A stretch of DNA of 64,000 bases, taken from the sequence record PZ256263.1; one strand, 5' to 3'. Within the stretch, counting starts at the first letter, position 1; every line of letters starts with the position of its first letter. The notes under the pieces were generated by a model that was given only the letters and a program-made list of their open reading frames with translations, made no database searches and was not told the DNA's origin. Of this stretch, positions 3,108-51,533 are shown in pieces. A program made the position numbers and the translations under genes. Origin of the DNA: a phage.

Positions 3108-3116
3108 TAATGTATA
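3108..3116 (+). promoter_or_regulatory. TAATGTATA motif (candidate promoter for the phage sigma factor)
   Basis: Exact TAATGTATA; the same motif recurs upstream of several genes. No ORF lies immediately downstream, so function here is uncertain. Confidence 0.3.
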
Positions 3117-3216
3117 CTTCATTTCATCGGGTACGATGTAAAACATACAAGGCAAGGAAACTTGCCCCGCTCTTTAAAAATCAGGCTAGAAAGTGAAAAT
3201 ATTCTTAAAAAGAGTA

Positions 3217-3245
3217 TTGACACCGAAAACAGCCTGATATATAGT
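3217..3245 (+). promoter_or_regulatory. Strong host sigma70-like promoter (TTGACA, 17 nt, TATAGT)
   Basis: Consensus -35 at 3217-3222, 17-nt spacer, -10 TATAGT at 3240-3245; AT-rich UP-like sequence upstream. Confidence 0.65.
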
Positions 3246-3848
3246 GAGCATAGTCAGCGATGACTTAAAAAATCCCGCTCTTTAAAAATATGATTTGTCT
3301 TACGGGTGGCGGCGACGTCATTACTATAAGGCGCTCAGTTAATCGGTAGAATTGATTCCTGATTCATACGTGACGCAGGCGGACAATAAGCAATATCAAT
3401 AAGCCTTATTTGTTCGATACTTTCAAAAGATTAATGCTTGAAAGCGCACTAGATTCCCTGAAAGACAAATCAGACTTATCATCTTGCCCTTTCGCATAGA
3501 TTCACGCGAGATAAGGGAAAGGAATTAAAAGAAGATGATAAAAAGAGTTGCAAACGTGGTTAAAGTAGTCCATACTAACCACAAGTTAGCAAAACATCGC
3601 TAACTAGTTCCCAAATCAACGTATCGCGGGAAAGGTGGCACATAGTGCAGCGATTAGTTCAGGTGTAGGCGGCCTGTTAATGAATCAGTAAGCCTTCAAT
3701 GTGACAGTGATTAGCAGACACTTTAAAAGGCTAAACGCTCTTTAACAATATGAATCATAAGTTAAGCCTCACCGCTTAATCTTCAATCAAATAAAGCTGA
3801 TTGATATATCCTCCCAATAGTGGGAACGACGAAAAAGATTAAAAAGCG

Positions 3849-3877
3849 GTTGACAGCGAAAACAACATGATTCATAA
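3849..3877 (+). promoter_or_regulatory. Strong host sigma70-like promoter (TTGACA, 17 nt, CATAAT)
   Basis: Consensus -35 at 3849-3854, 17-nt spacer, -10 CATAAT at 3872-3877; flanks resemble the promoter at 3217. Confidence 0.65.
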
Positions 3878-4801
3878 TGAGCACTCACTAAGCAAATCAT
3901 CGCTTCAGTGAAAAGCGTAACAACGGCTAACAGTTGCATAGTGTGAGAAAGCACACTGATAGATTTACCGCTCTTTAATAATTTAAACATTCTCCTATAT
4001 CGGTTGAATATGTTAGATGATAATAACCATCGGATAACATACCAGATAAAACGGCGTAAAACTCCCTAAATTATCAGGGTAAACAGTTTTACATTCCCTT
4101 ACTGGAAACGTCACCACTGATAAACAGATTCATCGAGTACACGCAAAGACTTAAGCTAATCGCCCACGGTTAAGGGTAGCGGCGGTCATCGCTAACATGG
4201 TGCTACGGTGAAAGAAGTTAATCAGGGTAGGCAATCCCGACGAATTAACGCTCAATTGAGAGCGGCGGGGAGTGGTTAAAAAGTGGCAAATTGCTATTTA
4301 ACAATAAGGTTTAGTGTGAACGTTTACGATGTGAACGGCTTGAGATTCATCTTATGATGAAAGTACATAGTCGGTTTATGTAGTAAACTTGCCGAAAGAT
4401 ATAAAACGTCGGAACATTAGACGGTCAATGACTCTTTCGCAATAGTATCCCGTAGTGGGCGATGACTAGCGATTGAGAGTTGATATAAAAGGATAGGCGA
4501 GAGCGAAAGCAAAGTAAACGATATTGCCGACGGTTACAATAACGTAACTAATTAGAGTCGGACGCACTGCCTTATTGTGATGATTGATCATCGCTATCAG
4601 GTCGGCTTCGTTTATAGCGACTAATTAAAGATACCAGATGAAACATCACGGATAAGGGGGCGGCAAGGTTAACTCCTGATAAGACCGCCCCACTTACCTA
4701 TAACTACTGAATAGTTAGCGGTTATAGTTAAGTTAATAGCGACTTAAACAAGCTCATAGAGAGCGGGGCAATAGCGCCCTTATAATTGAAAGGTGAATAT
4801 C

Positions 4802-5701
4802 ATGGCTAAAATCTTTAATCTGGTAAAAGAATCTGGTTTTAACGCACTGGCTAACAACATTCGTAGCAATAATGCGGCGATCAAACAAGATGTTTCTAAC
4901 TTCCTGTTAGGGCACTTGCAGCACTTCCGCAGTAACGGTAAAAAGCTGGACGTATTGCAGACGGCTGTTGACTTCCTGTTAACTGAACGTTTTCGTGATA
5001 TGGATGTTATCGCTACCGCAATTACTTTCTTAACTCCTATCAAGTTTAACACCGATGCGGCAAATGGTCGTAAAAAGTGGATTAATCTGGAAGGTGAGGC
5101 GAAAGCTAAAGAAGACGCGAAAGAAGCACAAATTAAGGCCAAAATGGAACAAAACCGCGCTCGCTGGTCAAACGCTTTCGAAAACTTCGCGTTAGGTCGT
5201 GAAATTGAAGTCGATAATCCTAACTTCTTCAAAGGTTGCAATGACAACGTAGCGGCACACCTGCAAATTCCGGCAAAGAATAAAGAAGACTTTAACCAAG
5301 ATATTTACGCTTTGGTTGAACGCTTGAATGCAATCCGTATTGAAGCCAAATTACTGGCTGATGAGCGCAACGGCGCAACTAGTGATAACACTATTGCCCT
5401 GAGCGAAGAGGTAGGAAAGGTTAAGAAATCTTTTGATTCACTCATCAAGAAAGTCACGGCCTCAACGGTAGCGATCTCTGATGACTACCTGATGAACGCA
5501 TCAAGCAAGGAATTGGAATCTCTCGATTCATACGCTGATGAAATGGAAAAGACTGTTGCAGCTATGCAGGAGAAGTTAGAAAGTCTGCGCGGTCGTATCT
5601 CTTCAACGGTTGCTACCCGTACCGAACAAGCGGCGAAAGCAGAAGAAGAAGAAGTATTGCGCAAAGCGGCTGAAATTATGGCAGCACGTCAGGCTGCATA
5701 A
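4802..5701 (+). CDS. Hypothetical early protein (299 aa), predicted helical/coiled-coil
   Basis: ATG at 4802 with AAAGGTGA RBS 6 nt upstream; followed by a strong terminator, suggesting a discrete highly expressed early unit. Confidence 0.7.
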   Translation: MAKIFNLVKESGFNALANNIRSNNAAIKQDVSNFLLGHLQHFRSNGKKLDVLQTAVDFLLTERFRDMDVIATAITFLTPIKFNTDAANGRKKWINLEGEAKAKEDAKEAQIKAKMEQNRARWSNAFENFALGREIEVDNPNFFKGCNDNVAAHLQIPAKNKEDFNQDIYALVERLNAIRIEAKLLADERNGATSDNTIALSEEVGKVKKSFDSLIKKVTASTVAISDDYLMNASSKELESLDSYADEMEKTVAAMQEKLESLRGRISSTVATRTEQAAKAEEEEVLRKAAEIMAARQAA

Positions 5702-5723
5702 GTAAGACAATTCAAATAAACAT

Positions 5724-5759
5724 AAGGCGCTATCTTAACGGGTAGCGCCTTTTCTTTTA
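5724..5759 (+). terminator. Rho-independent terminator
   Basis: Perfect 9-bp stem AAGGCGCTA / TAGCGCCTT followed by a T-run. Confidence 0.7.
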
Positions 5760-5812
5760 TCAGTGCATTGATTCAGTGCATTAATCAAAGAATCTAATCA
5801 AAGGTGATGATC

Positions 5813-6031
5813 ATGTTAATTACGCATACCACGATTTATCGGAATCTTGTCAACGGTCAACATTACCGCCTATCTAAAAAGTATGGCGTTGAATGTAAAT
5901 GTGTTATTACCGGTGAATGGTATCCGTCGCCAATGAAGATTGAAGCATTGGAACGTGAAGCGATCAGCTATATTATCACGCAAGAAACAACGTTAGGCCG
6001 TATCTTAAGAAAGTTGGGATTGAGAAAATGA
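5813..6031 (+). CDS. Hypothetical protein (72 aa)
   Basis: ATG at 5813 with AAGGTGA 5 nt upstream; tandem 13-bp direct repeat just upstream. Confidence 0.5.
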   Translation: MLITHTTIYRNLVNGQHYRLSKKYGVECKCVITGEWYPSPMKIEALEREAISYIITQETTLGRILRKLGLRK

Positions 6032-6252
6032 TATTCAGTAGCAATTTTGGCAAGTGTCCTATTTGTGAGAAACATCGCAGCACGGGAAACCATCGCAAAT
6101 GTAGTAAGATATTACAGCGCCAACGTGATAACAATCATTGGGAAACTGTACACACTAATCAGCGTAAAGAAGAAGTTAGAAAAATGGCTGTTAAAGCGTC
6201 ATTTGCTCAATCCACCCGTATTGAACACATTCAAAGGTATCAAGCATCATGA
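6028..6252 (+). CDS. Hypothetical Cys/His-containing protein (74 aa)
   Basis: ATGA start/stop overlap with the upstream gene; CPICEKH motif; preferred over the overlapping other-frame ORF 6047-6259. Confidence 0.45.
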   Translation: MIFSSNFGKCPICEKHRSTGNHRKCSKILQRQRDNNHWETVHTNQRKEEVRKMAVKASFAQSTRIEHIQRYQAS

Positions 6253-6458
6253 TCACTAATATTTCAGAGTTTAAGAAAGCTCCTTCCCGACTGTTAGGCC
6301 GTCGTGTTGTATATCTTTACAGCAACAAAGGTAAATGTACAACCGGAAGAATTACAACGGTGAGTAGTACCAACAAAACACTACTAAAGTTATGCGTGGC
6401 TATGGATGACGGTACAATCCTGCTACGAAGTTGGAAATCTTTCGGTTTACTTGATTGA
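6249..6458 (+). CDS. Hypothetical protein (69 aa)
   Basis: ATGA overlap with the upstream gene (translational coupling pattern). Confidence 0.45.
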   Translation: MITNISEFKKAPSRLLGRRVVYLYSNKGKCTTGRITTVSSTNKTLLKLCVAMDDGTILLRSWKSFGLLD

Positions 6459-6527
6459 GTTGTTTGTTCAAGCCTGTCACCTTGATGGGCTTGCCCGATA
6501 TAACTTATCACTAAAAGGAATAAGATT

Positions 6528-6971
6528 GTGGCTAAATCAAAAATCAGCATGAAGGGTGGGCGTTGTTTTTCTATCTCTGAACTGGAGAAAGAGAAGCCGA
6601 AGGCAACCAATCACGTCAGTAAGCGTAGTTTAAAACGTCGTGCTGCAAAGGCTGAAGCTGAATCCCATATTCCTTCTAGTGTGGCAAAGCGTATAGGCCA
6701 TCGTGTTCATCGTGCTGATGCGTTATTGTTAGCCGATCATAAACGTTCTTTATTACAGAGCGGGGGAGCTAAAACAGAAGAGGAGAAGAAGTTAGAAATC
6801 TTCTGTAATGGTCGCACCCGTGGTAAACAGAAGTTTAAGGGTAGCACTAAAGACCCTCAAGCATTTCCTAAGACAAGTCAGTGTGCGCCTGATGTTTTCT
6901 ACGCAGATAGTAAACACAAATGGGGAGTTGAAAAATACATTGACCCCATCAAAGAGGCAAGGGTTAAATAG
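6528..6971 (+). CDS. Hypothetical basic protein (147 aa)
   Basis: GTG start; Lys/Arg-rich sequence. Confidence 0.45.
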   Translation: MAKSKISMKGGRCFSISELEKEKPKATNHVSKRSLKRRAAKAEAESHIPSSVAKRIGHRVHRADALLLADHKRSLLQSGGAKTEEEKKLEIFCNGRTRGKQKFKGSTKDPQAFPKTSQCAPDVFYADSKHKWGVEKYIDPIKEARVK

Positions 6972-7051
6972 TAGGAATATAGCCCCCTCTTTTAGTACTA
7001 TGACGCTCTTTCTGTCGCGTCGTGCCCTCTCCCCATTTGAAGCTTCCGCAT

Positions 7052-7074
7052 AGCCGCCTTTGAGCGGCTTTTTG
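7052..7074 (+). terminator. Rho-independent terminator-like hairpin
   Basis: GCCGC / GCGGC stem followed by TTTTT. Confidence 0.55.
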
Positions 7075-7136
7075 CGTTGCTGTAAGTGCATTTGCGAGTG
7101 TATTTATAGCAACGGTCATGTGTTGCTTTCAGGTTT

Positions 7137-7163
7137 GCCCCGGCTACGGCTGGGGCTTTTTTA
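7137..7163 (+). terminator. Rho-independent terminator
   Basis: GCCCCGGC-tacg-GCTGGGGC stem (one G-U pair) followed by TTTTTTAT. Confidence 0.6.
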
Positions 7164-7211
7164 TGCCCGTAAAACAGGAGGTAGCAAGTTCTGATAACAA
7201 CGGCCCAGCTA

Positions 7212-7601
7212 ATGTTGACATTGACTATTTATTATGAGGCAGGGAATCAGCCAACCGCATGTAAAGCTATGGTTGCGGATACCGTGATAAATAGAATGGC
7301 CCAACGAAAACTGACCGCTGAACAGGTGATAAGACAAAAGAACCAGTTTGAGTGGATTCCGGTACTATTAAAACAGGAGAAACCTTATAAACGTTATGTA
7401 AAGCTGATTCGTGATAAAAATCCGATGACTAAGAAGGCCATTGGAGAAAGCGAGCGGCTGGCTAAACGTGCCCTTAAGAAGAATTATGTTCCGCTGTACA
7501 GTGGGACTTACTTTCAGAGTAAGAGCGAAGGGGTGCCAAAATGGTATGCCAATCCTATGTATTGTGGTGATTTAGTGTTCGATAATAGCTCTAGGGAATA
7601 A
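7212..7601 (+). CDS. SleB/CwlJ-like cell-wall hydrolase domain protein (129 aa)
   Basis: YYEAGNQ...VADTVINRM...VIRQKNQFEWIP...PKWYANP resembles the Hydrolase_2 (SleB/CwlJ) pattern by eye; start codon uncertain. Confidence 0.5.
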   Translation: MLTLTIYYEAGNQPTACKAMVADTVINRMAQRKLTAEQVIRQKNQFEWIPVLLKQEKPYKRYVKLIRDKNPMTKKAIGESERLAKRALKKNYVPLYSGTYFQSKSEGVPKWYANPMYCGDLVFDNSSRE

Positions 7602-7800
7602 TCACTAGTGCCAGATTTGACAAACTAAATTCCTTTATAAACCAACCACTTAGTAAATTTATTGAAAAAGATGGTAGTATTCTGGGACTATGGGTAATGC
7701 TCTGTATATAGACCCTTTGAAAATTTCTTAGAAAATAAGTTTACTAAATATAACTTACTTAAATAATATTACTTTTAATCTCTGATAAAGGGTAAACAAT

Positions 7801-8097
7801 ATGACTTTAGAAGTATATAAATTCCTTTTTGTAAGCTGTTTAACTATCAGCGTTCTAGGGTTTATTATTCTCAGAAACAAAGCAGCAAGCTGGGAGAGAA
7901 TGTACAAATCTCTAGTCCGAGTGGATGAGATGTATAATGAGAAAGTTAAAGCAACTCTTAACGATCTTATTATGCAAGTTGAGGACAGAAACAAGCGTCT
8001 TCAGAATCTCAACCATGAAGTATTACGCCTTGCTCGTGCTAATGAAGATTTGCGAGTAGCCATTGCTAAACAGCAGGAGATTAACAGTGAAGCATGA
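7801..8097 (+). CDS. Hypothetical membrane-anchored coiled-coil protein (98 aa)
   Basis: N-terminal hydrophobic segment then a heptad-like charged region. Confidence 0.5.
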   Translation: MTLEVYKFLFVSCLTISVLGFIILRNKAASWERMYKSLVRVDEMYNEKVKATLNDLIMQVEDRNKRLQNLNHEVLRLARANEDLRVAIAKQQEINSEA

Positions 8098-8344
8098 TAT
8101 CAATACAGCACCTGTGGTTAAGCAGCTTAAAGATCTAAGAGTGGGGGATGTTTTTGAAACTGTACCACATAAGAATAAGTTGTATCTTGTAGTAAAACTC
8201 GATTCTTCAACTGTTTATCAAGCCCAATGGAAACCTGATAAAAAGGTAGTAGTAGATCTTACTTCAGATAGAGTAACAATGTTGAGAAAAGATACTGTTG
8301 TTCAAATAGTTGATAATGTTCGTCTTACTAATAAGGTGGATTAA
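8087..8344 (+). CDS. Small paralogous protein, family A member 1
   Basis: Shares GDVF ... aromatic pair ... NLxTG-like pattern with 10 other ORFs; GTG at 8087 with CAGGAGA RBS (track start 8063). Confidence 0.5.
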   Translation: MKHDINTAPVVKQLKDLRVGDVFETVPHKNKLYLVVKLDSSTVYQAQWKPDKKVVVDLTSDRVTMLRKDTVVQIVDNVRLTNKVD

Positions 8345-8346
8345 CA

Positions 8347-10997: not shown

Positions 10998-11073
10998 GCG
11001 CTCTTAGCTCAATGGATAGAGCAGTAGCCTTCTAAGCTATTGGTTACAGGTTCGAGTCCTGTAGGGCGCACCA
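10998..11073 (+). tRNA. tRNA-Arg (anticodon UCU), 76 nt including CCA
   Basis: Hand-folded cloverleaf: acceptor GCGCTCT/AGGGCGC, D-arm GCTC-AATGGAT-AGAGC, anticodon loop CTTCTAA, T-arm ACAGG-TTCGAGT-CCTGT, discriminator A then CCA. Confidence 0.85.
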
Positions 11074-30170: not shown

Positions 30171-30194
30171 TTGGTAGTAGATATGATAACTCTC

Positions 30195-30203
30195 AAATGT
30201 ATA
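30195..30203 (+). promoter_or_regulatory. AAATGTATA motif (candidate phage-sigma promoter)
   Basis: Near-consensus motif 40 nt upstream of the ATG at 30243. Confidence 0.35.
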
Positions 30204-30242
30204 TAGAGTACAATAAGAATTTGTATTTTACAGGAGAGAGTT

Positions 30243-30569
30243 ATGTTAGATTTGAGTAAAGTGGCCCCGCCCACTGAAGAGATTACAAAATCCAAGGTGA
30301 TGCAACAGTTTTATCATCGTGATATGCTTGGTCGCTTTATCAAGAATCGTGATGTTGTTGCTTGGTCTATTGGTAATCAGGGATATCTGTTGAAGGTTCT
30401 TCAGGTTACAGGTTCAACTGCTAAGCGGGTTAAGGTGTATGACCCTGAAATGGGGCGTTCTAAGTCAGTAGACCCACAGAACTGCATCGTAATTACCCAG
30501 CAGGTGATAGCAAATCTAGAAAGAAATGTAGCAAACTCTACTGAGTTAGAAGGAGAAGACCCTAAGTGA
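30243..30569 (+). CDS. Hypothetical protein (108 aa)
   Basis: GGAGAGAG RBS. Confidence 0.5.
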   Translation: MLDLSKVAPPTEEITKSKVMQQFYHRDMLGRFIKNRDVVAWSIGNQGYLLKVLQVTGSTAKRVKVYDPEMGRSKSVDPQNCIVITQQVIANLERNVANSTELEGEDPK

Positions 30570-34675: not shown

Positions 34676-34698
34676 TAATGTATACTCCTTAATGTACA
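34676..34698 (+). promoter_or_regulatory. Tandem TAATGTATA / TAATGTACA motifs (candidate phage-sigma promoters)
   Basis: Exact consensus at 34676-34684 and a near copy at 34690-34698, 37 nt upstream of an AAGGAG RBS and the ATG at 34721. Confidence 0.4.
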
Positions 34699-34720
34699 CT
34701 GATATATTAAGGAGTTTTAA

Positions 34721-35035
34721 ATGGCAGACCATGTAGGAAAGAGAGATTATGCACAAGAAAGACGTACCGCAATTGCCCGTGGTGAGACAGGCGTTGGGAG
34801 CAAGAGCGGAGATGCTCAGCGCCACCGTGCACGTCGCATCGTTGAAAAGCGCGATGGAAAAGCTGCTGTCAGAGGTAAAGATGTTGGACACAAACGAGCT
34901 GTCAAGTCTGGAGGCTCTAATGCGTCAAGCAACTTACGTGTTGAATCAGTCAGCTCAAACCGTTCAAACGGCGGCAAAAGTGGTGATCGAGCTGGAAAAG
35001 CAGCTGGAGCACGCAAAGGAGCTTTAAGCTCATAA
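34721..35035 (+). CDS. Highly basic Gly/Ser/Arg/Lys-rich protein (104 aa), likely abundant
   Basis: Consensus AAGGAG RBS at ideal spacing; third-position A/T bias matches other genes, unlike the G-rich third positions of overlapping ORF 34749-35027. Confidence 0.5.
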   Translation: MADHVGKRDYAQERRTAIARGETGVGSKSGDAQRHRARRIVEKRDGKAAVRGKDVGHKRAVKSGGSNASSNLRVESVSSNRSNGGKSGDRAGKAAGARKGALSS

Positions 35036-36551: not shown

Positions 36552-38396
36552 GTGAGCAACCCGGACGCTCTCCCATTTTTGACAGAGATGACTGTCGCTG
36601 ATATAATCTCTAAGCAAGCAAAGCACGGAGTGAGTTTCAACCGAAGAAATGCTCGGTGGTATGTTCACCTCCTTAAAGAGATTATTGTTAATATTGACAA
36701 AGAACTGATTCCTCTCTTACCTAAGATGAGATTAGATGGCTCAACTTATATGAAGCCGTTTAAGAAGTCTGGAGCTTTACAGAAGTGGCCTCAAGCCTAT
36801 TGCGATAGAGTTGGCCTCAAGAGAGAAGACATTGGTGGAGCATTCACCTGTGTCGAGTACGTAGACTTTGACCCATCGAAAGATGCACGAGTTAAAGAAG
36901 CCCTTATGGATGAGGGTTTTCTTCCTCCAGAGTTTAACGTATCTAAAAAGCCTTGGAACACTTTCGAAATTAAGAAAGACATGCGAAAGTATGGAACATA
37001 CCAAGCATGGTACACCGCTTGGATGCGAGGCAATGCTAAACAGAAACAGACAGCCGAGATGGTTGACGCTGATATTAAGAAGTTCTTAGAGAAACACTTT
37101 AGGTTCAAGACTAAGAACTACATGAAGGCTTATGTGTTTGGTTTGGGATTAAACCCTAACCGACGTAACCCTGTAACATTTGACGAGATTAAGAAAGCAC
37201 TAGCTACCTCAAACAAGTGGCCTACAGCTCCTACAAACCTCGAGGAGACTCTTGAAGAAGGGTTAGGGGGTGAGCTAGGGAGTGTCGGAAGTTTGCTTAA
37301 GAGACGTGTTGTAGCGGCTCACAGGCTAGGTCTTATTAGTGGACTTATAGCAAAGGAGCGCGAAGATGGTAAACTTTCGGCAGAAGCTAACAGCTGCGCT
37401 ACGCCGACTTTTCGATTCAAACATCGTATCGTGGTTAATATTCCCTCCCGTGGTTTGTTTGGTCATGAGTGTCGCAGTTTGTTTGAGTCTGACTATAACT
37501 CAGATGATGATCACTCTCGTCCTTTCGTTATTACTAACGTTGTTCCTGATGGTTGTTATATACGAAAAGGTACTAACGTAATTTATGAAAAAGGTAAGCC
37601 GGGGAAGAAAGATAAGCCTGTAGGTGCTTACAAATATTACATACCCGCTGGTAAAGAAGTATTCTTAGGGTATGATGGTTCTGGATTAGAGTTGCGTATG
37701 CTTGCACACTACCTCATTAAAGAGTGTAGAGATATGCTTGCTGAAGCAATAGAAGAAAACAATCCAGCTAAGAAAGCTCTGGCAGAACGTGGTTTAGCTT
37801 CTGCTATTATGTATCGTGATATTCTCCTTGAAGGTGATATCCACTCTCACAACCAGAAACTTGCTGGTCTTCCTACTCGTGACAACGCTAAGACATTTAT
37901 CTACGCATTCAACTATGGTGCTGGTGATGCTAAGCTCGGTTCAATTGTAGGTGGTGGGGCTGACGAAGGTTCAGTGATGCGAGCACGTTTCTTGGCAGAG
38001 AACCCGTGTATTGCAATCCTCATTGATCGTATGACAGAGAAAGCTGCTCAAGGATACTTGATTGGTGTTGATGGTCGTAAGATTACAATGAGACGGGATG
38101 CCACTGGTAAGGTTATGGTTCATAAAGCACTTAACACCCTCCTGCAATGTGCTGGTGCTGTTGTTATGAAATATGCTATGATGTTCCTTAACAAGTGGAT
38201 TGAGAGAGATGGGGTTCGTTGTGCTAAGGTAATTGATATGCACGATGAGGGCCAGTTCTCAGTGAACCGTAATGATGTACAGAAACTCAAAGAACACACC
38301 GAGCTTTGTGTTAAGAAGGCTGGTGAGTATTTGAACATGGAATGTCCTCTGGCATCTGATTGTCAGATTGGACTTAACTGGATGCATACACACTAA
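36552..38396 (+). CDS. Family-A DNA polymerase, polymerase-domain subunit (614 aa)
   Basis: Motif A LGYDGSGLELRMLAHY, motif B RDNAKTFIYAFNYGAGDAKLG, motif C VIDMHDEGQF; no exonuclease motifs in this ORF. Confidence 0.85.
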   Translation: MSNPDALPFLTEMTVADIISKQAKHGVSFNRRNARWYVHLLKEIIVNIDKELIPLLPKMRLDGSTYMKPFKKSGALQKWPQAYCDRVGLKREDIGGAFTCVEYVDFDPSKDARVKEALMDEGFLPPEFNVSKKPWNTFEIKKDMRKYGTYQAWYTAWMRGNAKQKQTAEMVDADIKKFLEKHFRFKTKNYMKAYVFGLGLNPNRRNPVTFDEIKKALATSNKWPTAPTNLEETLEEGLGGELGSVGSLLKRRVVAAHRLGLISGLIAKEREDGKLSAEANSCATPTFRFKHRIVVNIPSRGLFGHECRSLFESDYNSDDDHSRPFVITNVVPDGCYIRKGTNVIYEKGKPGKKDKPVGAYKYYIPAGKEVFLGYDGSGLELRMLAHYLIKECRDMLAEAIEENNPAKKALAERGLASAIMYRDILLEGDIHSHNQKLAGLPTRDNAKTFIYAFNYGAGDAKLGSIVGGGADEGSVMRARFLAENPCIAILIDRMTEKAAQGYLIGVDGRKITMRRDATGKVMVHKALNTLLQCAGAVVMKYAMMFLNKWIERDGVRCAKVIDMHDEGQFSVNRNDVQKLKEHTELCVKKAGEYLNMECPLASDCQIGLNWMHTH

Positions 38397-41223: not shown

Positions 41224-41692
41224 AGAACCTGTAGTTTATAAAGACTCTATCAGAGATCAATATAATGAGATGTTAAAGAAACAAGCTGATTCTAATCTTC
41301 GTTATCAGAGGATAGTAGAACAATCTAACTTTAAAGGTTTACTTGAATGGTAACTTATATCCTTTACTTCTTAGCTTTCTTAGGAATAGTCTTTTTATCT
41401 ATTATTCTTGAATTTGGTTTAAGTAAGTTAGTTAATTATTTAGGTAGTAAGTAATTAATATTCTTTTAAATAGAGAATCAAAGTCCCTAGGAGTCCCCAC
41501 AACCTAAATCAAGGATTCCTTAATTCTCTATTTTTATCTCGCAGGTGGCTCCTGCCCTTCGGTACTTGCAAGGGATTCTATGAATTGCCCAATGTACAAG
41601 CCTGCAAGAGTTATTCTCTAACTCTACCTTATATACATTACCGTTAGTGAGTATCTACTACCAATAAAATGATACTTATCTTACAAAAGTTA

Positions 41693-41701
41693 TAATGTAT
41701 A
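41693..41701 (+). promoter_or_regulatory. TAATGTATA motif (candidate phage-sigma promoter)
   Basis: Exact motif 60 nt upstream of the ATG at 41761, inside a 400-bp AT-rich intergenic region. Confidence 0.4.
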
Positions 41702-41760
41702 TTATACATAACCGCTCAAAGAGAGCAACAATCTATCAAATTAAATAAGGAAATTAAAAT

Positions 41761-42507
41761 ATGTCTATGATTCCAACTATCGCAACTTCTTCCCGTAAAT
41801 CCAACTACGACATCATCCCTGATGGTGAGTATGAAGCACGTATTGTTCGTGTAGTAGGTTTGGGTGTTCACAATCGTGACCCTTGGGTTGACCCGAAGAC
41901 CAAAGCAGTAACTCCTAAGAATCCAGCTTTCCGTATGGATTTGGCTTTCGAGCTGATTGGTGTTGATGCTACTGGTAAAGATTCCGATGGTAAGGCATTA
42001 GAACCACGTCCTGCTTGCCAGTTCAAGAGTTATGATGTAAACCCACGAGCTAAGAACTCTGGTATTCTTGATCTCTGCAAGATGATTGACCCAAGCATTC
42101 AAGCACTGAAAGGTGATCTGTCTTGGTTTAAGGATGTGCTGTTAGGTCAGCCTGTTAACATTCTGGTTAACTCTTACACTAACAAAGCTGGTGAAGTTAA
42201 AAACTCCATCAAGACCATTTCTCCAATCCCAACCAAATATCGTGCAGCAGTTGGTGAAGCTCGTAGCCCTCTGGTATTCTTCGAACCGTATGCTGAAACC
42301 GATGAGAACGTAGCATCCTATCAACTGATGTTCCCGTTCCAGCGCAACCTGCTTACTCAAGCTAATGACGCTAAGAACATGCCTCTGGCTGGTCGTGAAA
42401 TTACTCGTGCTTCTGAAACAGAGCAGAAAGAAGCTACCCCTTCAATCCCTACGATTGATAAAGAGCCTGCTTCTACTTACGAAGACGACAACGATAGCCC
42501 ATTCTAA
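41761..42507 (+). CDS. Putative single-stranded DNA-binding protein (248 aa)
   Basis: Acidic C-terminal tail ending ...YEDDNDSPF (compare E. coli SSB ...DDDIPF and T7 gp2.5 terminal Phe); AAGGAAA RBS; own promoter motif and terminator. OB fold not verified. Confidence 0.5.
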   Translation: MSMIPTIATSSRKSNYDIIPDGEYEARIVRVVGLGVHNRDPWVDPKTKAVTPKNPAFRMDLAFELIGVDATGKDSDGKALEPRPACQFKSYDVNPRAKNSGILDLCKMIDPSIQALKGDLSWFKDVLLGQPVNILVNSYTNKAGEVKNSIKTISPIPTKYRAAVGEARSPLVFFEPYAETDENVASYQLMFPFQRNLLTQANDAKNMPLAGREITRASETEQKEATPSIPTIDKEPASTYEDDNDSPF

Positions 42508-43060: not shown

Positions 43061-44546
<1,486 letters not shown>

Positions 44547-46156: not shown

Positions 46157-46544
46157 GAAGACTCGCTGTAGTGGAATGTGGACTGAAGCTCGTTATAACT
46201 CTTTCATCAAGTCAGGGATTCGTTCTCTGACTAGAAAGTGGAAGCCCATGTTTGATGCACTAGCAGACGCCAAGACAGAGCAGAAGATTAATCCAAAGAC
46301 AGGAAGACTGGCAATGCACTTTAAGTGTGCCATGTGTGGTAATGACCACCCTGTAAAGGATATGGCTATTGACCATATAGAGCCTATAGTCCCTCTTGAC
46401 CATGAAGCAACTTGGGATGAAATTATCTCTCGTGCTCTATGTGAGAAAGAAGGTTTTCAGGTTCTATGTAAAGACCCTTGTCATAAGATTAAAACAAAAG
46501 AAGAGAATGATGCAAGAAAACAATTCAAAAAAGGAAATGAGTGA
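46143..46544 (+). CDS. HNH endonuclease (133 aa)
   Basis: CAMCG ... DHIEPI ... CHKIKT HNH-type motif. Confidence 0.7.
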   Translation: MAKSEKTRCSGMWTEARYNSFIKSGIRSLTRKWKPMFDALADAKTEQKINPKTGRLAMHFKCAMCGNDHPVKDMAIDHIEPIVPLDHEATWDEIISRALCEKEGFQVLCKDPCHKIKTKEENDARKQFKKGNE

Positions 46545-46764
46545 TGATCAAAAATCTACGCAACAAGTACTTCGCTTTCGCTATCGCAATTGGAGAGGCG
46601 AGATTGCTGACCGGTCCGTTATTCCACTCCGAACCTCCGTTGCTAGCTCCCGTTTTCATAACGGTGGCAAACCTTGTTGGATTATGACAGCGATTGATGT
46701 AGAGAAAGATGAGATTAGAGAGTTCAAGCTCTCAGATATTATTCAATATTATGATTTGATCTAG
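46537..46764 (+). CDS. Hypothetical protein (75 aa)
   Basis: Internal ATG of track ORF 46396-46764 chosen to limit overlap; start uncertain. Confidence 0.35.
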   Translation: MSDDQKSTQQVLRFRYRNWRGEIADRSVIPLRTSVASSRFHNGGKPCWIMTAIDVEKDEIREFKLSDIIQYYDLI

Positions 46765-47025
46765 GAGGGAATATGGTCTATGATCAAGATATTCTAGACG
46801 AATTGCTTAAAATGGCAAATCGCCTTACAGAGATTATCGAAGAAATAAAAGTCAGAGAAGAGTCTTACTTAGCAGCCGAGGAAAATTGGGATGTATGAGG
46901 ATGAATTTGATGGATTTTGAAAAGATAAAACAGATCAAAATTGATATGATGAAAAAGTTCAAAGCGGCTTATGATAAAGCTGTTAAAGAAGGAACTATCA
47001 CTTACAAGAAAATCTAGAAACAAAT

Positions 47026-47063
47026 AAAGCCCTCTTGGATTTCTCCTTGAGGGCTTTTCTTTT
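47026..47063. terminator. Bidirectional rho-independent terminator between convergent units
   Basis: Perfect 9-bp stem AAAGCCCTC / GAGGGCTTT with T-rich runs on both strands; between the last plus-strand ORF and the stop of the minus-strand gene at 47065. Confidence 0.7.
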
Positions 47064-47064
47064 A

Positions 47065-50000
47065 TCACTCCTTAGGTCGAACTCTTACACGGAGTCTCGA
47101 TTGACGCTTACTGCGTTCAAGCTTCTCTGACAATGAGCCACGTTTAATCTTCGGCTTCCCTTCGTCATTAAACTTCTCCAAGAACTGCAAGTACTCAGTA
47201 CGATTAGTTGTCTTGTAAGAAGGAATCTTAATATCAGGGTTCTCTTCAATCACACGTCTAATCTTCGCTACATCATCCCTACCAAGCAACTTACTCTTAG
47301 CCTGTTCAGCTGTAGAACCAAAGATCTTCTCCAGTGCTCTGGATTTGTTACCACCTGCGGAAGAAGCACCAAGTTTAGCAATGGCAGAGTAATCATCAGC
47401 ACTAAACCAAGCTACTGGATTATCACCATACTTCTTCTTGTTTTCAGCAGCAGTCTGCAATGCACGTACAAATCGACGGTTGTTACCAGCCTTATCTGCA
47501 CCATGAACCCTGTCTAAAACTTCAGCCACACTAGCCAACTCATCCAAGCTCTTCCCACTCAAGAAAGCTTTCTCTACTTTATCAGCAAATACCTCTTCCT
47601 GTTGTTTAATGCTTTCCAAGATATCAGAATTTGCTTGAGATCTTTCATCATCAGGCAGAGCAGAACGAATCTTCTCCATCTCCAACTCTTCCTCTTGCAG
47701 TTTCTTAATATCAGAGTCAACCTTCTGAGCCTCCTCAACAGCCTTCCTAGTATCCGCATCCAAGTTATCAAGCTTACCTTCAGTATCTCCAGTAACCTTA
47801 ACAATCTCTTTCTCGATAGGAGTCATTGATTCGTACTTCTTAGCAAACTTCTCAACATCAGCTTCGATACGAGAACGAGCATTCTGATGTTCAGTAGGAG
47901 TCATAGGCTTCTCAAGAAGTGCATAACGGTTATCCATATAGGAACCAGCAAATGCTTCAGCATCCTCTCTAGATATGCCCTTATCTTCCATAGTACGCAT
48001 CAGGCGGCGATGAATGTCATCACGTTGACGTTGTACTGCCATAAGGTCATTCTCACGCTCTTGAGCTGCTTTAAGCTCTTCACTGCGCTTAACTCTCTTG
48101 TCCACATCAAACTTACGGTTCATCTCTTCCGCTTGCTCATACATCTTGTTCAACTTGGCCTGACGAGCATCTTCCTCTGCATCAGTTAAACGACGCTGAC
48201 GATCAAGGTAATCTGACTCGGCGTTGTGGATACGTTCAATATAACTACGGAACTTCTCTGGAGGAACTGGAGAGTTCTTGTCATGGTGAGCAGCCAACTG
48301 TTTCAATGTACGAGATTCCTGAGCCTCACGAACAGGTTTAGGTAAACCTTCCATCATCTTCTCAATCTCACTCTTCTGAGCTGCAATAGCCTCTAGAGTT
48401 TTACGTTCATTCTCAACAGCAGCCTTAGCATCTGAACGAGCCTGAGCCTTTTTCCTGAGGGTAGCAAGACGTTCTTCACGAGCCTGTAAGTGCTTAGCAG
48501 CAGCTTCGTACTGAGAGTTCTTGTTAGCTTTGTTGAAGGCATTCACTTCTCTGTTGTAGGTGTTGATAAACCCATCCCAAATATCCTTCATCTGACCAAC
48601 TTCCAAAGCCTCTTCCCTACCAGCCTTCTCTGAAGATTTAAACTTCCCATCTACAAAGTCATTCATCAGCTTACGCATAGCATCTTTCTGAGCAGGACGT
48701 AAAGGTTCTGAATCAATCAAAGTATCAATCTCAGACTGAAGCTCTTTCTTCTGGTCAACCAGTTTAGGAGCATCCTTCTTATCGAAAGCTTTGTTTTCTT
48801 CTAGAGCTTGTTGATACAGTCTATCAAACTCATCCTCACGCTGCTTCTGATACAACCTTTCAGCACGACGTTTCAGACTATCTAAGTTAGTTACGTTCCC
48901 ACCTAAACCTTTCTCTTCAGCACGTAATGCCTTAGTAGCAATATCTTCTGGCAGACCACGTTCCTTAACCCATTCAGCAAAATTAGTTCGTACAGTGTTG
49001 TTCTTAGCAGTAGCAATACCTTGCTGAGAAGCCAGCTGGTTACGAGCCATTTCTTCATGACGTTCAGTGTTGATAGCATTATCTTCCTGACGAATACGAC
49101 GCATCAATTCCTTAGGATCACCCTTATAAGCCAAGAAGTTTTCAGCAGTAGCCTTAGCCTTAGCAGCCTTAGAGTACAGAGAACGAGCAAAACGTTCTGC
49201 ACGATCTTTAGTAGCCTGACGAGCAGCACTAGACATAGCAGCTAAACGTTCTACACCACTTGCCGGTTTAACGTCCTGTACAGCTTCCTTAGGAGCTTTA
49301 GGAGCACGGGCAGGTAATGGCTCAGCTTTGACTGTTGGTTCCTCTACGGTAGGTTCTGGAGCCTGTGCGGCCTCTTCTTGAGCACGTTGCTGTTCCATTG
49401 CACGACGCTCCTCTAAAGGGTTACGAGCAGGGAGAGGTTCAGCCTGTGGAGCTTGTTCGACCGGAGCTTCTTGAGCAGCTGCTGCCTCTTCTTCAGCGCG
49501 ACGCTGTTCAGCCTGACGGATAGCACGTCTTTGCGCAACTAAATCACGAGCTGTGAGAGAAGTTTCTTGAGGAGCAGAAGAAGGAAGATTTTCTTCCGTC
49601 ACAGTACTAGAAGAAGGCTCCCGAACCGGTTCGGTTTCCACGTCATTTTGCGTCTTAAATTTAATGTCATCAACAACTGGTTCTTCTTCCATCTTAGCAC
49701 GAGCTTCATCAGCAGTAGACTTAGCACGAGCAACTTCCAAATCACCACGAGCCAGAGAGCGGATAGCTTCACTGTTAGACTCTTGTTGCTTAACACGTTG
49801 AGAACGGGCACGCTGAGAAGAGAAGCGATTCAGAGCATACTTAGCAGCACCGAGAGTGTTCATTACCAGGCTAGGTGAAGAAGCCTCACGGAATCCATCA
49901 TCAGTCAGGGAAGTCCAACCACGATCTTGGTTACTCATAAACTTAGCCGTATTGTTCAGAGTGTAAGCATCTTGGATAGGATTAAAACCTTCAGGCATAC

Positions 50001-51486
50001 CTTTCAGTTTCTTCAACCCACCAATAGCTTTCTTCATCTCTGGAGAAACATTATCAGCCATCTTCTGTAGTTCAGCAGCTTTCTCTACAAAGTTATTAAA
50101 GTCTTCACCATCACGAGCTTTGAATCGATTTGCTTCATTGTAGAAAGTCTTGTAAGCATCAATGAAATCACGGTCGGCTTGTGTACGGTTCTTAATATCA
50201 ATTGGACTACCAGTAAAATCACCAGAAGCTCGGAGAGAAGTTAATTCACGGTCTAGGTTATCTAGAACATCTGTAAGAGCTTTCGTGTTGTCTTTGGTGT
50301 AGTCAGCCATTGCATCCTTCATAGCAACAGCCTGCTTCTGGTTGTGCTCATTATCAGCAAATGCTTTACCACGAGTCTTAGCAGGAGAAGCTAAAGGATT
50401 AAGGCCCGGAATGTTGGAATGTTCTTTCTGAACAGAAGCAGCTTTCTCAGCACGAGCTTGGTCAGTATTAAGAATACGCTGAGCAGCAGGAGAATCCACA
50501 GCAACAGCATCTGTAATACGGAATCCATTCTCATCCAGAAGATTCAGAGCAGAAGCAGCGTTAGCAGTTTCAGCTTTAGAGTAAGCTTCTTTCAGTTCAT
50601 CAATGTTCTTAGCACTACGAATTAGTTCATCATCAGCAGCAATATCAGTCTTCGCATACTCTGGAGTATTCTTGAAGACAGCAGAATCCGGACGGCTAAT
50701 CAATCCATGAACCCCACCAACTGCACCACCGAATGCAGCACCCATAGCACCTTCTTCGATAGCACCTTCTAATACATTAGCAAAGGTTGTGTCATCTCCG
50801 TGCTTATTCTGAGCTTCAGCAGCACCTACAAGAGCACCACCTTTAGCACCAGCCACTGCGTTACTAGCAACGTTCTGACCAATACGTCCAAGTGTGGACT
50901 CAGCTGTACCAACAGCACCCGGAAGGATTCTCTGAGCCGCATAGTTAGCACCACCAACTAAGGCTGCATCTAGAATAGACTTATCTTCTCCCTCTTCAGG
51001 GGTTTGGTCTGCATATGCGCGACCTGTCTCACGACCTGCTATGATAGCAGCAGCAGCCAATGGGTTAGCAACTGTCAAACCGATATCACCAGCAACGCCA
51101 GCATACTGACCGACAGTTTTACCAATCCCATCCTCAATCTTATCCATACGTTCTTTCAGAAGGTTCTGAGAGTTCTCTTGGATACGCTTACCATAACTAG
51201 TCTGTGCTCCAGCTAGATTCTCACCAATCTCAACTAAACCACCAATACCTTTAGCAGCACTAGCTGCAATGTTTGCACCACCGGATTGAAGAGCATTTGA
51301 CACACCTTGAGCAAACTCACCTATAGCACCACGTTCTTCTTGTTGTGGTTGTGCTACTGGTTGTTCCTCAGGAATAGAGCCACCTGCTGCCTTATATTGT
51401 TCTCTCATTTGAGCTTGTTGCTCCGGAGAGGCATTCAGATACGCAGGAGCTTTGGAAGCTTCTTCCCACGGTTTAATGTTAGCCAT
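47065..51486 (-). CDS. Large virion-associated protein (about 1474 aa); internal/ejection or tape-measure-like
   Basis: Very long charged, Ala/Glu/Lys-rich ORF; second in-frame ATG at 51486 has a GGAG RBS (track start 51531). Confidence 0.6.
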   Translation of the reverse strand: MANIKPWEEASKAPAYLNASPEQQAQMREQYKAAGGSIPEEQPVAQPQQEERGAIGEFAQGVSNALQSGGANIAASAAKGIGGLVEIGENLAGAQTSYGKRIQENSQNLLKERMDKIEDGIGKTVGQYAGVAGDIGLTVANPLAAAAIIAGRETGRAYADQTPEEGEDKSILDAALVGGANYAAQRILPGAVGTAESTLGRIGQNVASNAVAGAKGGALVGAAEAQNKHGDDTTFANVLEGAIEEGAMGAAFGGAVGGVHGLISRPDSAVFKNTPEYAKTDIAADDELIRSAKNIDELKEAYSKAETANAASALNLLDENGFRITDAVAVDSPAAQRILNTDQARAEKAASVQKEHSNIPGLNPLASPAKTRGKAFADNEHNQKQAVAMKDAMADYTKDNTKALTDVLDNLDRELTSLRASGDFTGSPIDIKNRTQADRDFIDAYKTFYNEANRFKARDGEDFNNFVEKAAELQKMADNVSPEMKKAIGGLKKLKGMPEGFNPIQDAYTLNNTAKFMSNQDRGWTSLTDDGFREASSPSLVMNTLGAAKYALNRFSSQRARSQRVKQQESNSEAIRSLARGDLEVARAKSTADEARAKMEEEPVVDDIKFKTQNDVETEPVREPSSSTVTEENLPSSAPQETSLTARDLVAQRRAIRQAEQRRAEEEAAAAQEAPVEQAPQAEPLPARNPLEERRAMEQQRAQEEAAQAPEPTVEEPTVKAEPLPARAPKAPKEAVQDVKPASGVERLAAMSSAARQATKDRAERFARSLYSKAAKAKATAENFLAYKGDPKELMRRIRQEDNAINTERHEEMARNQLASQQGIATAKNNTVRTNFAEWVKERGLPEDIATKALRAEEKGLGGNVTNLDSLKRRAERLYQKQREDEFDRLYQQALEENKAFDKKDAPKLVDQKKELQSEIDTLIDSEPLRPAQKDAMRKLMNDFVDGKFKSSEKAGREEALEVGQMKDIWDGFINTYNREVNAFNKANKNSQYEAAAKHLQAREERLATLRKKAQARSDAKAAVENERKTLEAIAAQKSEIEKMMEGLPKPVREAQESRTLKQLAAHHDKNSPVPPEKFRSYIERIHNAESDYLDRQRRLTDAEEDARQAKLNKMYEQAEEMNRKFDVDKRVKRSEELKAAQERENDLMAVQRQRDDIHRRLMRTMEDKGISREDAEAFAGSYMDNRYALLEKPMTPTEHQNARSRIEADVEKFAKKYESMTPIEKEIVKVTGDTEGKLDNLDADTRKAVEEAQKVDSDIKKLQEEELEMEKIRSALPDDERSQANSDILESIKQQEEVFADKVEKAFLSGKSLDELASVAEVLDRVHGADKAGNNRRFVRALQTAAENKKKYGDNPVAWFSADDYSAIAKLGASSAGGNKSRALEKIFGSTAEQAKSKLLGRDDVAKIRRVIEENPDIKIPSYKTTNRTEYLQFLEKFNDEGKPKIKRGSLSEKLERSKRQSRLRVRVRPKE

Positions 51487-51524
51487 AACGTCTCCTTTTA
51501 TAAATAAAAATGTCCTACCCCCTA

Positions 51525-51533
51525 TATACATTA
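51525..51533 (-). promoter_or_regulatory. TAATGTATA motif (candidate phage-sigma promoter)
   Basis: Minus-strand CTATAATGTATATA, 39 nt upstream of the ATG at 51486. Confidence 0.4.

What the first reader, a model, noticed from the sequence alone, without database searches (positions are those of the whole stretch)
3108..51533. Recurrent TAATGTATA motif 37-60 nt upstream of start codons, likely the phage sigma-factor promoter
Exact or near-exact TAATGTATA occurs at 3108, 30195, 34676, 34690, 41693 (plus strand) and 51525-51533 (minus strand). All but the first lie at a consistent distance upstream of strongly RBS-equipped genes (30243, 34721, the SSB-like gene, the large virion protein). The genome encodes an ECF-like sigma factor (43520-44167). 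I recall a similar single-element promoter for phiEco32-type phage sigma factors but cannot verify it here.
Basis: partly seen in the sequence, partly recalled or inferred. Interest (0 to 1): 0.45.

Follow-up and report, generated by a model that had tools for sequence, protein, structure and literature searches.

The report
Known phiEco32 sigma-factor promoters, rediscovered
The repeated TAATGTATA motif is the already published promoter element read by the phage's own sigma factor (phiEco32 gp36), so the finding is correct but ordinary; one extra conserved copy pointing the opposite way may be an unreported seventh promoter.

Summary
The window is a phiEco32-like coliphage (Kuravirus, 94-95% identical to MN03 and SU10). 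Exact TAATGTATA occurs 5 times against 0.78 expected; no shuffle reached 5. One-mismatch copies are not enriched (20 against 19). Four sites (30195+, 34676+, 41693+, 51525-) are the orthologues of phiEco32 promoters P68, P58, P40 and P26. Those promoters were mapped experimentally and are recognised by host RNA polymerase carrying phage sigma gp36 (consensus tAATGTAtA; cryo-EM structure 9M7Y). The window's sigma is 213/214 identical to gp36, and its gp79 co-activator is 100% identical. The -10 element is invariant in 12 genomes of two genera.

Corrections:
- 3108 is a chance overlap with a sigma-70 early promoter; its AATG core is not conserved.
- 34690 lies in the loop of a hairpin that hides a ribosome-binding site (RBS), and most relatives lack the motif there.
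It diverges from P40 and carries the same -35 element as P68 at the same spacing. It is conserved in all 17 related genomes and is absent from the published six-promoter lists I could read. It would start a structured non-coding RNA of about 165 nt.
- The promoter is no longer strictly single-element, because gp36 also contacts -37G and -34A.

The parts
30195..30203 (+). -10-like element (AAATGTATA, -15..-7) of the P68 orthologue, a middle promoter. Predicted start of transcription is at 30210, with a 33-nt leader to the ATG at 30243.
   Evidence: It is identical over 85 nt to phiEco32 P68. The element is 100% conserved in 12 genomes. Register. P68 was used for the cryo-EM open complex (PMC12276001).
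30173..30183 (+). -35 element GGTAGTAGATA (-37..-27) of P68. It holds -37G (30173) and -34A (30176), which the gp36 C-terminal domain contacts.
   Evidence: It is 100% conserved. The contacts are described in PMC12276001.
34676..34684 (+). -10-like element of the P58 orthologue, a middle promoter. Predicted start is at 34691, with a 30-nt leader to the ATG at 34721.
   Evidence: It is invariant in the 11 of 12 large loci that hold this region (absent from PH444), while the -60..-16 region is only about 65% conserved.
34684..34715 (+). 13-bp hairpin (ACTCCTTAATGTA...TATATTAAGGAGT) that sequesters the Shine-Dalgarno sequence of gene 34721. The P58 start (34691) lies inside its left arm.
   Evidence: -14.3 kcal/mol for the hairpin; the read-through RNA folds it and the P58-initiated RNA cannot. 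The sequence is conserved in relatives with an A/G change that keeps pairing.
30186..30244 (+). Hairpin whose left arm ATAACTCTC (30186-30194, upstream of the P68 start) pairs with GAGAGTTAT (30236-30244). The right arm covers part of the Shine-Dalgarno sequence and the first two bases of the start codon of gene 30243.
   Evidence: It folds in all three sequence variants found in 12 genomes; the one A-to-G change gives a G.U pair.
41693..41701 (+). -10-like element of the P40 orthologue, a middle promoter. Predicted start is at 41708, with a 53-nt leader to the ATG at 41761 (the gp40 homologue, SSB-like).
   Evidence: The -10 element is invariant in 12 genomes; the -35 region is about 69% conserved.
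41632..41640 (-). Exact TAATGTATA on the opposite strand, back-to-back with P40 ('antiP40'). It is a candidate seventh gp36 promoter with a predicted start at 41625(-). It is not in the published six-promoter lists.
   Evidence: It is present in phiEco32 at 36704(+) and in 17/17 related genomes. The footprint is 99% at -15..-7 and 98% at -37..-27, against 60% in the spacer.
41652..41662 (-). GGTAGTAGATA at -37..-27 of antiP40. It is identical to the P68 -35 element and has the same 11-nt spacing to the -10 element.
   Evidence: there are only two exact copies in the window, and both lie 11 nt upstream of a -10 motif. Register.
41462..41625 (-). Putative non-coding transcript of about 165 nt from antiP40. 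It has a 5' hairpin (41607-41625), a variable middle module, and a nearly invariant block of about 95 nt that includes a long hairpin (41467-41534). On the + strand the same hairpin followed by TTTTTAT looks like the terminator of the upstream operon.
   Evidence: In the 5' hairpin, 2 of 6 pairs show compensatory changes. G.U pairs occur at 5 positions against C.A at 1, which favours the minus strand. There is no Rfam match, no conserved ORF and no E. coli match.
51525..51533 (-). -10-like element of the P26 orthologue, a late promoter. Predicted start is at 51518, with a 32-nt leader to the ATG at 51486 of the 1473-aa virion protein.
   Evidence: It is identical over 85 nt to phiEco32 P26 and invariant in 12 genomes. 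P26 was transcribed by the gp36 holoenzyme in vitro (PMC12276001).
51548..51556 (-). TAAGACCTA at -38..-30 of P26. phiEco32 late promoter P13 has the same element in the same register, so it may be specific to the late class.
   Evidence: (100% conserved).
51512..51546 (-). 15-bp hairpin followed by ATTTTTATTT, a terminator for transcripts arriving from upstream. The P26 -10 element sits at its apex and the P26 start lies in its right arm.
43523..44167 (+). Sigma factor, the orthologue of phiEco32 gp36. It reads the motif.
   Evidence: 213/214 identical. Residues E79, H80, Y83, R84, W90, S91, S94, N95, Y186 and R187 are all present. PDB 9M7Y_F. The Pfam Sigma70_r2 match is below its cut-off.
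24021..24269 (+). gp79 orthologue. It displaces sigma-70 region 4 and co-activates the gp36 holoenzyme.
   Evidence: 82/82 identical. PDB 9M7Y_G.
3108..3116 (+). It is a chance overlap with a sigma-70 early promoter (TTGCAT-16-TATACT) in the ORF-free early control region.
   Evidence: The AATG core is replaced by AGCG or GGCG in ES17, MN03, MN05 and XT32, while TTGCA and GTATACT stay invariant. It has C at -37 and T at -34. The site is absent at this place in phiEco32.

Best explanation
The motif is the -10-like element of promoters used by E. coli core RNA polymerase carrying the phage sigma factor (gp36 orthologue, 43523-44167), assisted by the gp79 orthologue (24021-24269).

As shown for phiEco32, the gp36 N-terminal domain reads A-14, A-13, T-12 and G-11 of tAATGTAtA and melts the DNA from -11. 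Transcription starts 6-8 nt after the motif. The C-terminal domain, held in place by gp79, touches the -35 region at -37G and -34A.

In this window the sites at 30195+, 34676+ and 41693+ are the middle promoters P68, P58 and P40. The site at 51525- is the late promoter P26. P13 and P6 lie beyond the right end of the window. These assignments follow from near-identity with the experimentally mapped phiEco32 promoters. Transcription itself is inferred, not measured here.

Inferred additions, with my probabilities:
(a) The exact copy at 41632(-), which has a P68-type -35 element, is a seventh gp36 promoter. It fires away from gene 40 into a structured non-coding region of about 165 nt. About 0.55.
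(b) At P58 and P68 the start site lies inside a hairpin that hides the ribosome-binding site. Only transcripts started by gp36 would then be translated, while read-through from early promoters stays silent. About 0.6.
(c) P26 sits at the apex of the terminator that ends the upstream late transcript.

Sites 3108 and 34690 are not part of the regulon.
For: - Enrichment: 5 exact copies against 0.78 expected.
- The window is 94-95% identical to phiEco32-type phages.
- The sigma is 213/214 identical to gp36 and keeps all DNA-contact residues; gp79 is 82/82 identical.
- The phiEco32 motif positions coincide with genes 6, 13, 26, 40, 58 and 68, as published (PMC4331800; PMC8948821; PMC4281155).
- The window sites have flanks identical or nearly identical to P26, P40, P58 and P68.
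- Positions -15..-7 are 100% conserved across the 12 Kuravirus and Suseptimavirus large loci (P58: the 11 that hold its region), while the flanks of P58 and P40 are 65-71% conserved.
- -34A is present at all five sites and +1 is a purine at all five.
- The structural basis is in PMC12276001.
- For antiP40.
- For the hairpins.
Against: - No transcript data exist for this phage, so start sites are predicted from the phiEco32 register.
- -37G, reported as essential at P68, is A at P58 and P26. The -35 requirement is therefore not uniform, or its register differs between promoters.
- In this window P58, P40 and P26 also contain TATAAT at -17..-12, so some use by sigma-70 cannot be excluded.
[quoted passage not shown] There is no U-rich terminator on that strand. 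Most of the putative RNA is invariant, so covariation is confined to one 6-bp helix.
- For antiP40: the arrangement is absent from phage 7-11.
Confidence: 0.93

Rival explanations
1. The sites are host sigma-70 promoters, or dual-use promoters, with an extended -10-like TGTATA/TATAAT. The phage sigma is not needed.
For: The SU10 authors annotated the P68, P58 and P40 equivalents as sigma-70 promoters as well (PMC4281155). In this window TATAAT overlaps the motif at P58, P40 and P26, and the simple scan reports ATGATA-16-TATAAT at 41669-41696.
Against: - The invariant bases are AATGTA, not a sigma-70 hexamer.
- The overlapping TATAAT is not conserved: phiEco32 has CATAAT at P58 and CGTAAT at P40.
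- The sigma-70-type -35 hexamers are poor.
- The literature reports gp36-dependent transcription from these promoters, and gp79 shuts off sigma-70 (PMC8948821, PMC12276001).
Confidence: 0.06
2. The motif copies are chance occurrences in AT-rich intergenic DNA.
For: One-mismatch copies are at the chance level (20 against 19.2). One exact copy (3108) does turn out to be a chance overlap.
Against: No shuffle reaches 5 exact copies. The element is invariant in 12 genomes while neighbouring bases vary. The sites are orthologous to mapped promoters.
Confidence: 0.01
3. The divergent copy at 41632(-), with the invariant block next to it, is a DNA-level element and not a gene for a functional RNA. It could be an origin of replication activated or primed by transcription, as at T7 or T4 origins, or simply the bidirectional terminator and insulator between the P58 and P40 operons.
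For: - The block of about 95 nt is nearly invariant, which suits a protein- or DNA-level site. It holds a direct repeat, TAGGGACTCC/TAGGGACTTT.
- It lies in the most AT-rich 2 kb of the window (GC 0.36), just upstream of an SSB-like gene.
- On the + strand the hairpin is followed by TTTTTAT.
Against: G.U pairs that are valid only on the minus strand occur at 5 positions. The 5' hairpin shows compensatory changes. No origin has been mapped in this phage group.
Confidence: 0.3

Closest known systems
phiEco32 gp36-dependent middle and late promoters P6, P13, P26, P40, P58 and P68 (Pavlova et al. 2012, as cited in PMC8948821, PMC4331800 and PMC12276001)
   Same: The consensus tAATGTAtA is the same. 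The sigma is 99% identical and gp79 is 100% identical. The genome positions and flanking sequences match, and so does the -35 contact at P68.
   Different: Nothing essential differs, so this is the same regulon in a sister phage. The extra divergent copy at 41632(-) (phiEco32 36704+) is not in the published set that I could read.
Salmonella phage 7-11 late promoters, GTAAtg-(16)-aCTA, read by SaPh711_gp47 (PMC8948821)
   Same: A phage-encoded sigma drives the non-early genes from promoters at equivalent genome positions. An example is P48, upstream of the gp40 homologue.
   Different: The 7-11 consensus is bipartite and different. Its sigma is only 15% identical, and it has no gp79 and no middle class. 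No 7-11-type motif occurs in the window. There is no divergent promoter or conserved block upstream of 7-11 gene 48.
T4 late promoters (TATAAATA at -10, read by gp55 with co-activator gp33). From my own knowledge.
   Same: The promoter is dominated by a short, highly conserved -10 element. It is read by a diverged, truncated phage sigma that needs a small phage co-activator bound to RNA polymerase.
   Different: The motif and the proteins are different. T4 couples late transcription to the sliding clamp. Here the sigma keeps a sigma-4-like domain that touches -35.
T4 lysozyme (e) and soc translational control by start-site choice (McPheeters et al. 1986). From my own knowledge.
   Same: Read-through early transcripts fold a hairpin over the ribosome-binding site. 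The late promoter starts inside the hairpin and so frees the site. This is the geometry predicted here for P58 and P68.
   Different: It is not tested experimentally here, and the promoters and genes are different.
Bacterial ECF (group 4) sigma promoters
   Same: The sigma has a two-domain (sigma-2 and sigma-4-like) architecture. The PDB entry names gp36 'RNA polymerase ECF sigma factor'.
   Different: There is no AAC -35 or CGT -10 signature. The Pfam Sigma70_r2 match is below its cut-off (18.2 against 24 bits). The literature calls gp36 a distant sigma-70-family homologue.

Membership tests
phiEco32 gp36-dependent promoters | A -10-like element tAATGTAtA with an intact AATGTA core | tested here: met
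   30195 (AAATGTATA), 34676, 41693, 51525(-) and 41632(-) all carry it. 34690 (TAATGTACA) keeps the core in this window, but it reads TAGTGTACA in most relatives.
phiEco32 gp36-dependent promoters | The genome encodes the cognate sigma with its DNA-reading residues | tested here: met
   213/214 identity to gp36. E79, H80, Y83, R84, W90, S91, S94, N95, Y186 and R187 are present. It matches PDB 9M7Y_F.
phiEco32 gp36-dependent promoters | The genome encodes the gp79 co-activator and sigma-70 inhibitor | tested here: met
   82/82 identity. It matches PDB 9M7Y_G.
phiEco32 gp36-dependent promoters | Positional orthology with an experimentally mapped promoter | tested here: met
   P68, P58, P40 and P26 are matched by their flanks and downstream genes. 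This is NOT met for 3108. For 41632(-) the orthologous phiEco32 site exists (36704+), but it is not a mapped promoter.
phiEco32 gp36-dependent promoters | -35 contacts at -37G and -34A, as at P68 in the cryo-EM structure | tested here: inconclusive
   -34A is present at all five sites. -37G is present at P68, P40 and antiP40, but P58 and P26 have A there. 3108 has C at -37 and T at -34.
phiEco32 gp36-dependent promoters | Transcription start 6-8 nt downstream, dependent on the gp36 holoenzyme | not testable with these tools
   This needs primer extension, 5' RNA-seq or in vitro transcription. It has been shown for phiEco32 only (PMC8948821, PMC12276001).
Host sigma-70 early promoters (for site 3108) | -35 TTGACA-like and -10 TATAAT-like hexamers 16-18 nt apart, conserved as such in relatives | tested here: met
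   The site reads TTGCAT-16-TATACT. TTGC and GTATACT are invariant in 6 genomes while the AATG core is not, and there is an A/T-rich upstream stretch. It lies in the early control region next to TTGACA-17-TATAGT at 3217-3245 (SU10 Table S2).
7-11-type gp47 promoters | Bipartite GTAAtg-(16)-aCTA | tested here: not met
   No match on either strand of the window.
Known RNA families (for the antiP40 transcript) | A match to an Rfam covariance model | tested here: not met
   The only gathering-level hit is tRNA-Arg at 10998. The best hits in 41300-41800 have E = 1.6 and 2.5.

The most novel reading that the evidence does not exclude
phiEco32-type phages have a seventh, unreported gp36-dependent promoter (window 41632-41662, minus strand; phiEco32 36681-36712, plus strand), back-to-back with P40. 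It carries the same -35 element as P68. It would make a structured non-coding RNA of about 165 nt, or an antisense or primer transcript, that is conserved across Kuravirus and Suseptimavirus. In addition, P58 and P68 would gate translation by starting inside hairpins that hide the ribosome-binding site.
Probability: 0.45. Interest if true: 0.45.

Novelty: already known. Interest (0 to 1): 0.18.

Why it matters
For the finding itself, the motif lets the middle and late transcription units of this phage be annotated by transfer from phiEco32: P68, P58 and P40 on the + strand, and P26 on the - strand. It also confirms that the gp36/gp79 switch is intact. Nothing new is learned about promoter recognition.

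The by-products are more useful. They include a conserved divergent promoter with a P68-type -35 element, and class-specific upstream elements: GGTAGTAGATA at P68 and the divergent site, and TAAGACCTA at the late promoters P13 and P26. They also include start sites placed inside hairpins that hide the ribosome-binding site. These would refine the phiEco32 model of temporal control. They might help explain how one sigma serves two temporal classes. They also matter for anyone using gp36 and its promoters as an orthogonal expression module.

Tried and rejected
- One-mismatch motif enrichment: none, so near-matches were judged only by homology.
- My first ORF-based coding map mislabelled 3108 and 51525 as coding. 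I corrected this with the phiEco32 annotation. An earlier version of the script timed out.
- Pavlova 2012 and Savalia 2008 are not held in the library. The content of the primary mapping paper is therefore known only through later papers.
- Supplementary Table S2 of the 7-11 paper contains gene tables only, with no promoter list.
- Rfam at the gathering and E-value thresholds gave nothing for the 41300-41800 region. E. coli genomes hold no match to the conserved block.
- A search for targets complementary to the putative RNA within the window found only 10-12-mers at the chance level.
- An IMG/VR pattern scan for the long hairpin returned the same five Kuravirus contigs plus unrelated chance hits.
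- More distant gp40 homologues (L008-L010) and phage 7-11 lack the motif, the divergent promoter and the conserved block. The divergent element therefore has no support from outside this subgroup.
- 43448 TAATGTTTA and 62711 TAATATATA were considered as extra promoters and set aside. The first lies inside a coding region next to the sigma-70 promoter of the sigma gene. The second has A at the essential G-11 position.
Full report
OBSERVATION. Exact TAATGTATA occurs at 3108+, 34676+, 41693+ and 51525-51533(-). One-mismatch copies lie at 30195+ (AAATGTATA) and 34690+ (TAATGTACA). A fifth exact copy at 41632-41640(-) was overlooked. Five exact copies compare with 0.78 expected, and no dinucleotide shuffle out of 100 reaches five. 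A Markov simulation gave a mean of 0.62 and a maximum of 3. The one-mismatch class is at the chance level (20 against 19.2), so near-matches mean nothing by themselves.

WHAT THE WINDOW IS. A 6-kb piece is 94-95% identical to Escherichia phages MN03, SU10, YW01 and others of the genus Kuravirus. The window is the reverse complement of roughly 13.5-77.5 kb of phiEco32. The protein at 43523-44167 is 213/214 identical to phiEco32 gp36 and keeps every residue reported to touch promoter DNA. It matches PDB 9M7Y chain F. The protein at 24021-24269 is 82/82 identical to gp79 (9M7Y chain G).

WHAT IS KNOWN. Four papers in the library agree on the following.
- Six phiEco32 promoters upstream of genes 6, 13, 26, 40, 58 and 68 are used by host core polymerase with gp36.
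- They share the element tAATGTAtA, and transcription starts 6-8 bp downstream.
- gp79 shuts off sigma-70 and activates the gp36 holoenzyme (PMC4331800; PMC4281155; PMC8948821; PMC12276001).
- The 2025 cryo-EM structure of RNAP-gp36-gp79 on P68 places AATGTA at -14..-9. N95, S91, S94, E79 and H80 read A-14, A-13, T-12 and G-11. R187 and Y186 of the C-terminal domain read -37G and -34A.
The primary mapping paper (Pavlova 2012) is not held, so I know its content only through these citations.

MAPPING. In phiEco32 the motif sits at 1677 (P6), 9101 (P13), 26014 (P26), 36632- (P40), 42937- (P58) and 46862- (P68, AAATGTATA). The window sites 51525-, 41693+, 34676+ and 30195+ have the same flanks and the same downstream genes. 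P13 and P6 fall outside the window. Across the 12 large loci from Kuravirus and Suseptimavirus, positions -15..-7 are 100% identical at P68, P40 and P26, and at P58 in the 11 loci that hold its region. The -60..-16 regions of P58 and P40 are only 65-71% identical. All sites have A at -34 and a purine at the predicted +1.

SITES TO DROP. Site 3108 lies in the 2-kb ORF-free early control region. In relatives the AATG core is replaced (TAGCG or TGGCG), while TTGCA and GTATACT are invariant. It has C at -37 and T at -34. It is a sigma-70 promoter, TTGCAT-16-TATACT, that happens to overlap the 9-mer in this lineage. Site 34690 reads TAGTGTACA in most relatives and runs from the left arm into the loop of a hairpin (see below).

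THE MISSED SITE. Site 41632-41640(-) is an exact copy, back-to-back with P40. The predicted starts are at 41625(-) and 41708(+), 83 bp apart. At -37..-27 it carries GGTAGTAGATA. This 11-mer occurs exactly twice in the window: here and at P68, both 11 nt upstream of the -10 element. The site exists in phiEco32 (36704+) and in all 17 related genomes examined. Its footprint is that of a two-block promoter: 98% identity at -37..-27 and 99% at -15..-7, against 60% in the spacer and 69% upstream. It does not appear in the six-promoter lists or in SU10 Table S2.

Downstream on the minus strand there is no conserved ORF. There is instead a structured region (MFE -50 kcal/mol, z = -2.8) made of three parts:
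- a hairpin that begins at +1, with compensatory changes in 2 of 6 pairs;
- a middle module that exists in two unrelated versions;
- a nearly invariant block of about 95 nt with a long hairpin.
G.U pairs occur at five positions against one C.A, which favours an RNA on the minus strand. No Rfam family matches, and neither do E. coli genomes. I found no target within the window. On the + strand the same hairpin followed by TTTTTAT looks like the terminator of the upstream operon. A purely DNA-level or terminator role remains a serious rival. Phage 7-11 has nothing comparable.

ARCHITECTURE AROUND THE PROMOTERS.
- At P58 the predicted start (34691) lies inside the left arm of a 13-bp hairpin that buries the Shine-Dalgarno sequence of gene 34721.
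- At P68 the left arm (30186-30194) lies upstream of the start and pairs with part of the Shine-Dalgarno sequence and the first two bases of the start codon of gene 30243.
- At both promoters, read-through RNAs fold these hairpins and promoter-initiated RNAs cannot.
- P26 has its -10 element at the apex of a 15-bp hairpin followed by a U-run, and it starts in the right arm.
- The late promoters P13 and P26 share TAAGACCTA at -38..-30. P68 and the divergent site share GGTAGTAGATA.
These are inferences from sequence and folding only.

MECHANISM. Shown by orthology with experiments on phiEco32: gp36 replaces sigma-70 on host core polymerase, gp79 removes sigma-70 region 4 and holds the gp36 C-terminal domain, the AATGTA core is read, and the DNA opens from -11. 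Inferred here: the start coordinates, the seventh promoter, the translational gating and the class-specific upstream elements.

VERDICT. The divergent promoter and its RNA are the only part that might be new. I put about 0.45 on its being a real, unreported gp36 promoter.

Noticed in passing
window 41632-41662 (-) and 41462-41625 (-): An exact TAATGTATA with a P68-type -35 element, divergent from P40 and conserved in 17/17 relatives. It is not among the six published promoters. It would start a structured non-coding RNA of about 165 nt whose 5' hairpin shows compensatory changes.
   Followed up: yes
window 34684-34715 (+): A hairpin hides the Shine-Dalgarno sequence of gene 34721. The predicted P58 start (34691) lies inside its left arm, so only P58-initiated mRNA would be translatable. 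This resembles T4 lysozyme/soc control.
   Followed up: partly
window 30186-30244 (+): The same logic applies at P68. ATAACTCTC, upstream of the start, pairs with GAGAGTTAT, which covers part of the ribosome-binding site and the first two bases of the ATG of gene 30243. The hairpin is kept in all three sequence variants among 12 genomes.
   Followed up: partly
window 51500-51546 (-): The P26 -10 element sits at the apex of a 15-bp terminator-like hairpin followed by ATTTTTATTT. Transcripts from upstream would stop where P26 transcripts begin.
   Followed up: partly
window 51548-51556 (-), 30173-30183 (+); L001 9078-9086: The upstream elements are class-specific. TAAGACCTA lies at -38..-30 of the late promoters P26 and P13. 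GGTAGTAGATA lies at -37..-27 of middle promoter P68 and of the divergent site. P58 and P40 have no conserved -35 block.
   Followed up: partly
window 2830-4793: This is a 2-kb ORF-free early control region with strong sigma-70 promoters (TTGACA-17-TATAGT at 3217-3245 and TTGACA-17-CATAAT at 3850-3878). The 3108 promoter has an A/T-rich upstream stretch.
   Followed up: partly
window 43439-43456 and 43478-43507 (+): TAAGACCTA directly abuts a near-motif TAATGTTTA inside the gene upstream of the sigma gene. It is followed by a sigma-70 promoter, TGGACA-18-TATAAT, for the sigma gene. I did not resolve whether the near-motif has any function.
   Followed up: no
window 41761-42507 (+): The gp40 homologue ends in an acidic tail...EDDNDSPF, like bacterial SSB. 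One GenBank record annotates it as an ssDNA-binding protein. It has no Pfam hit and its PHROG is of unknown function.
   Followed up: partly
window 41347-41454 (+): A conserved 35-aa hydrophobic peptide gene (phrog_24970; phi32_41) lies directly in the path of any read-through antisense transcript from the divergent promoter.
   Followed up: no
L021 13300-13500; L003 2750-2934: In EcM-vB1-type genomes an insertion of about 120 nt more separates the two back-to-back promoters. There P40 acquires its own GGTAGT at -37..-32. The middle module of the putative RNA is replaced by an unrelated structured sequence in these genomes and in ECBP2.
   Followed up: partly
window 24021-24269 (+): The gp79 orthologue gives weak whole-sequence matches to TAL-effector repeat proteins in the PDB search (E = 1e-8 to 3e-4). 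No single stretch passes the threshold.
   Followed up: no
window 10998-11073 (+): A tRNA-Arg(TCT) gene, as in phiEco32.
   Followed up: no
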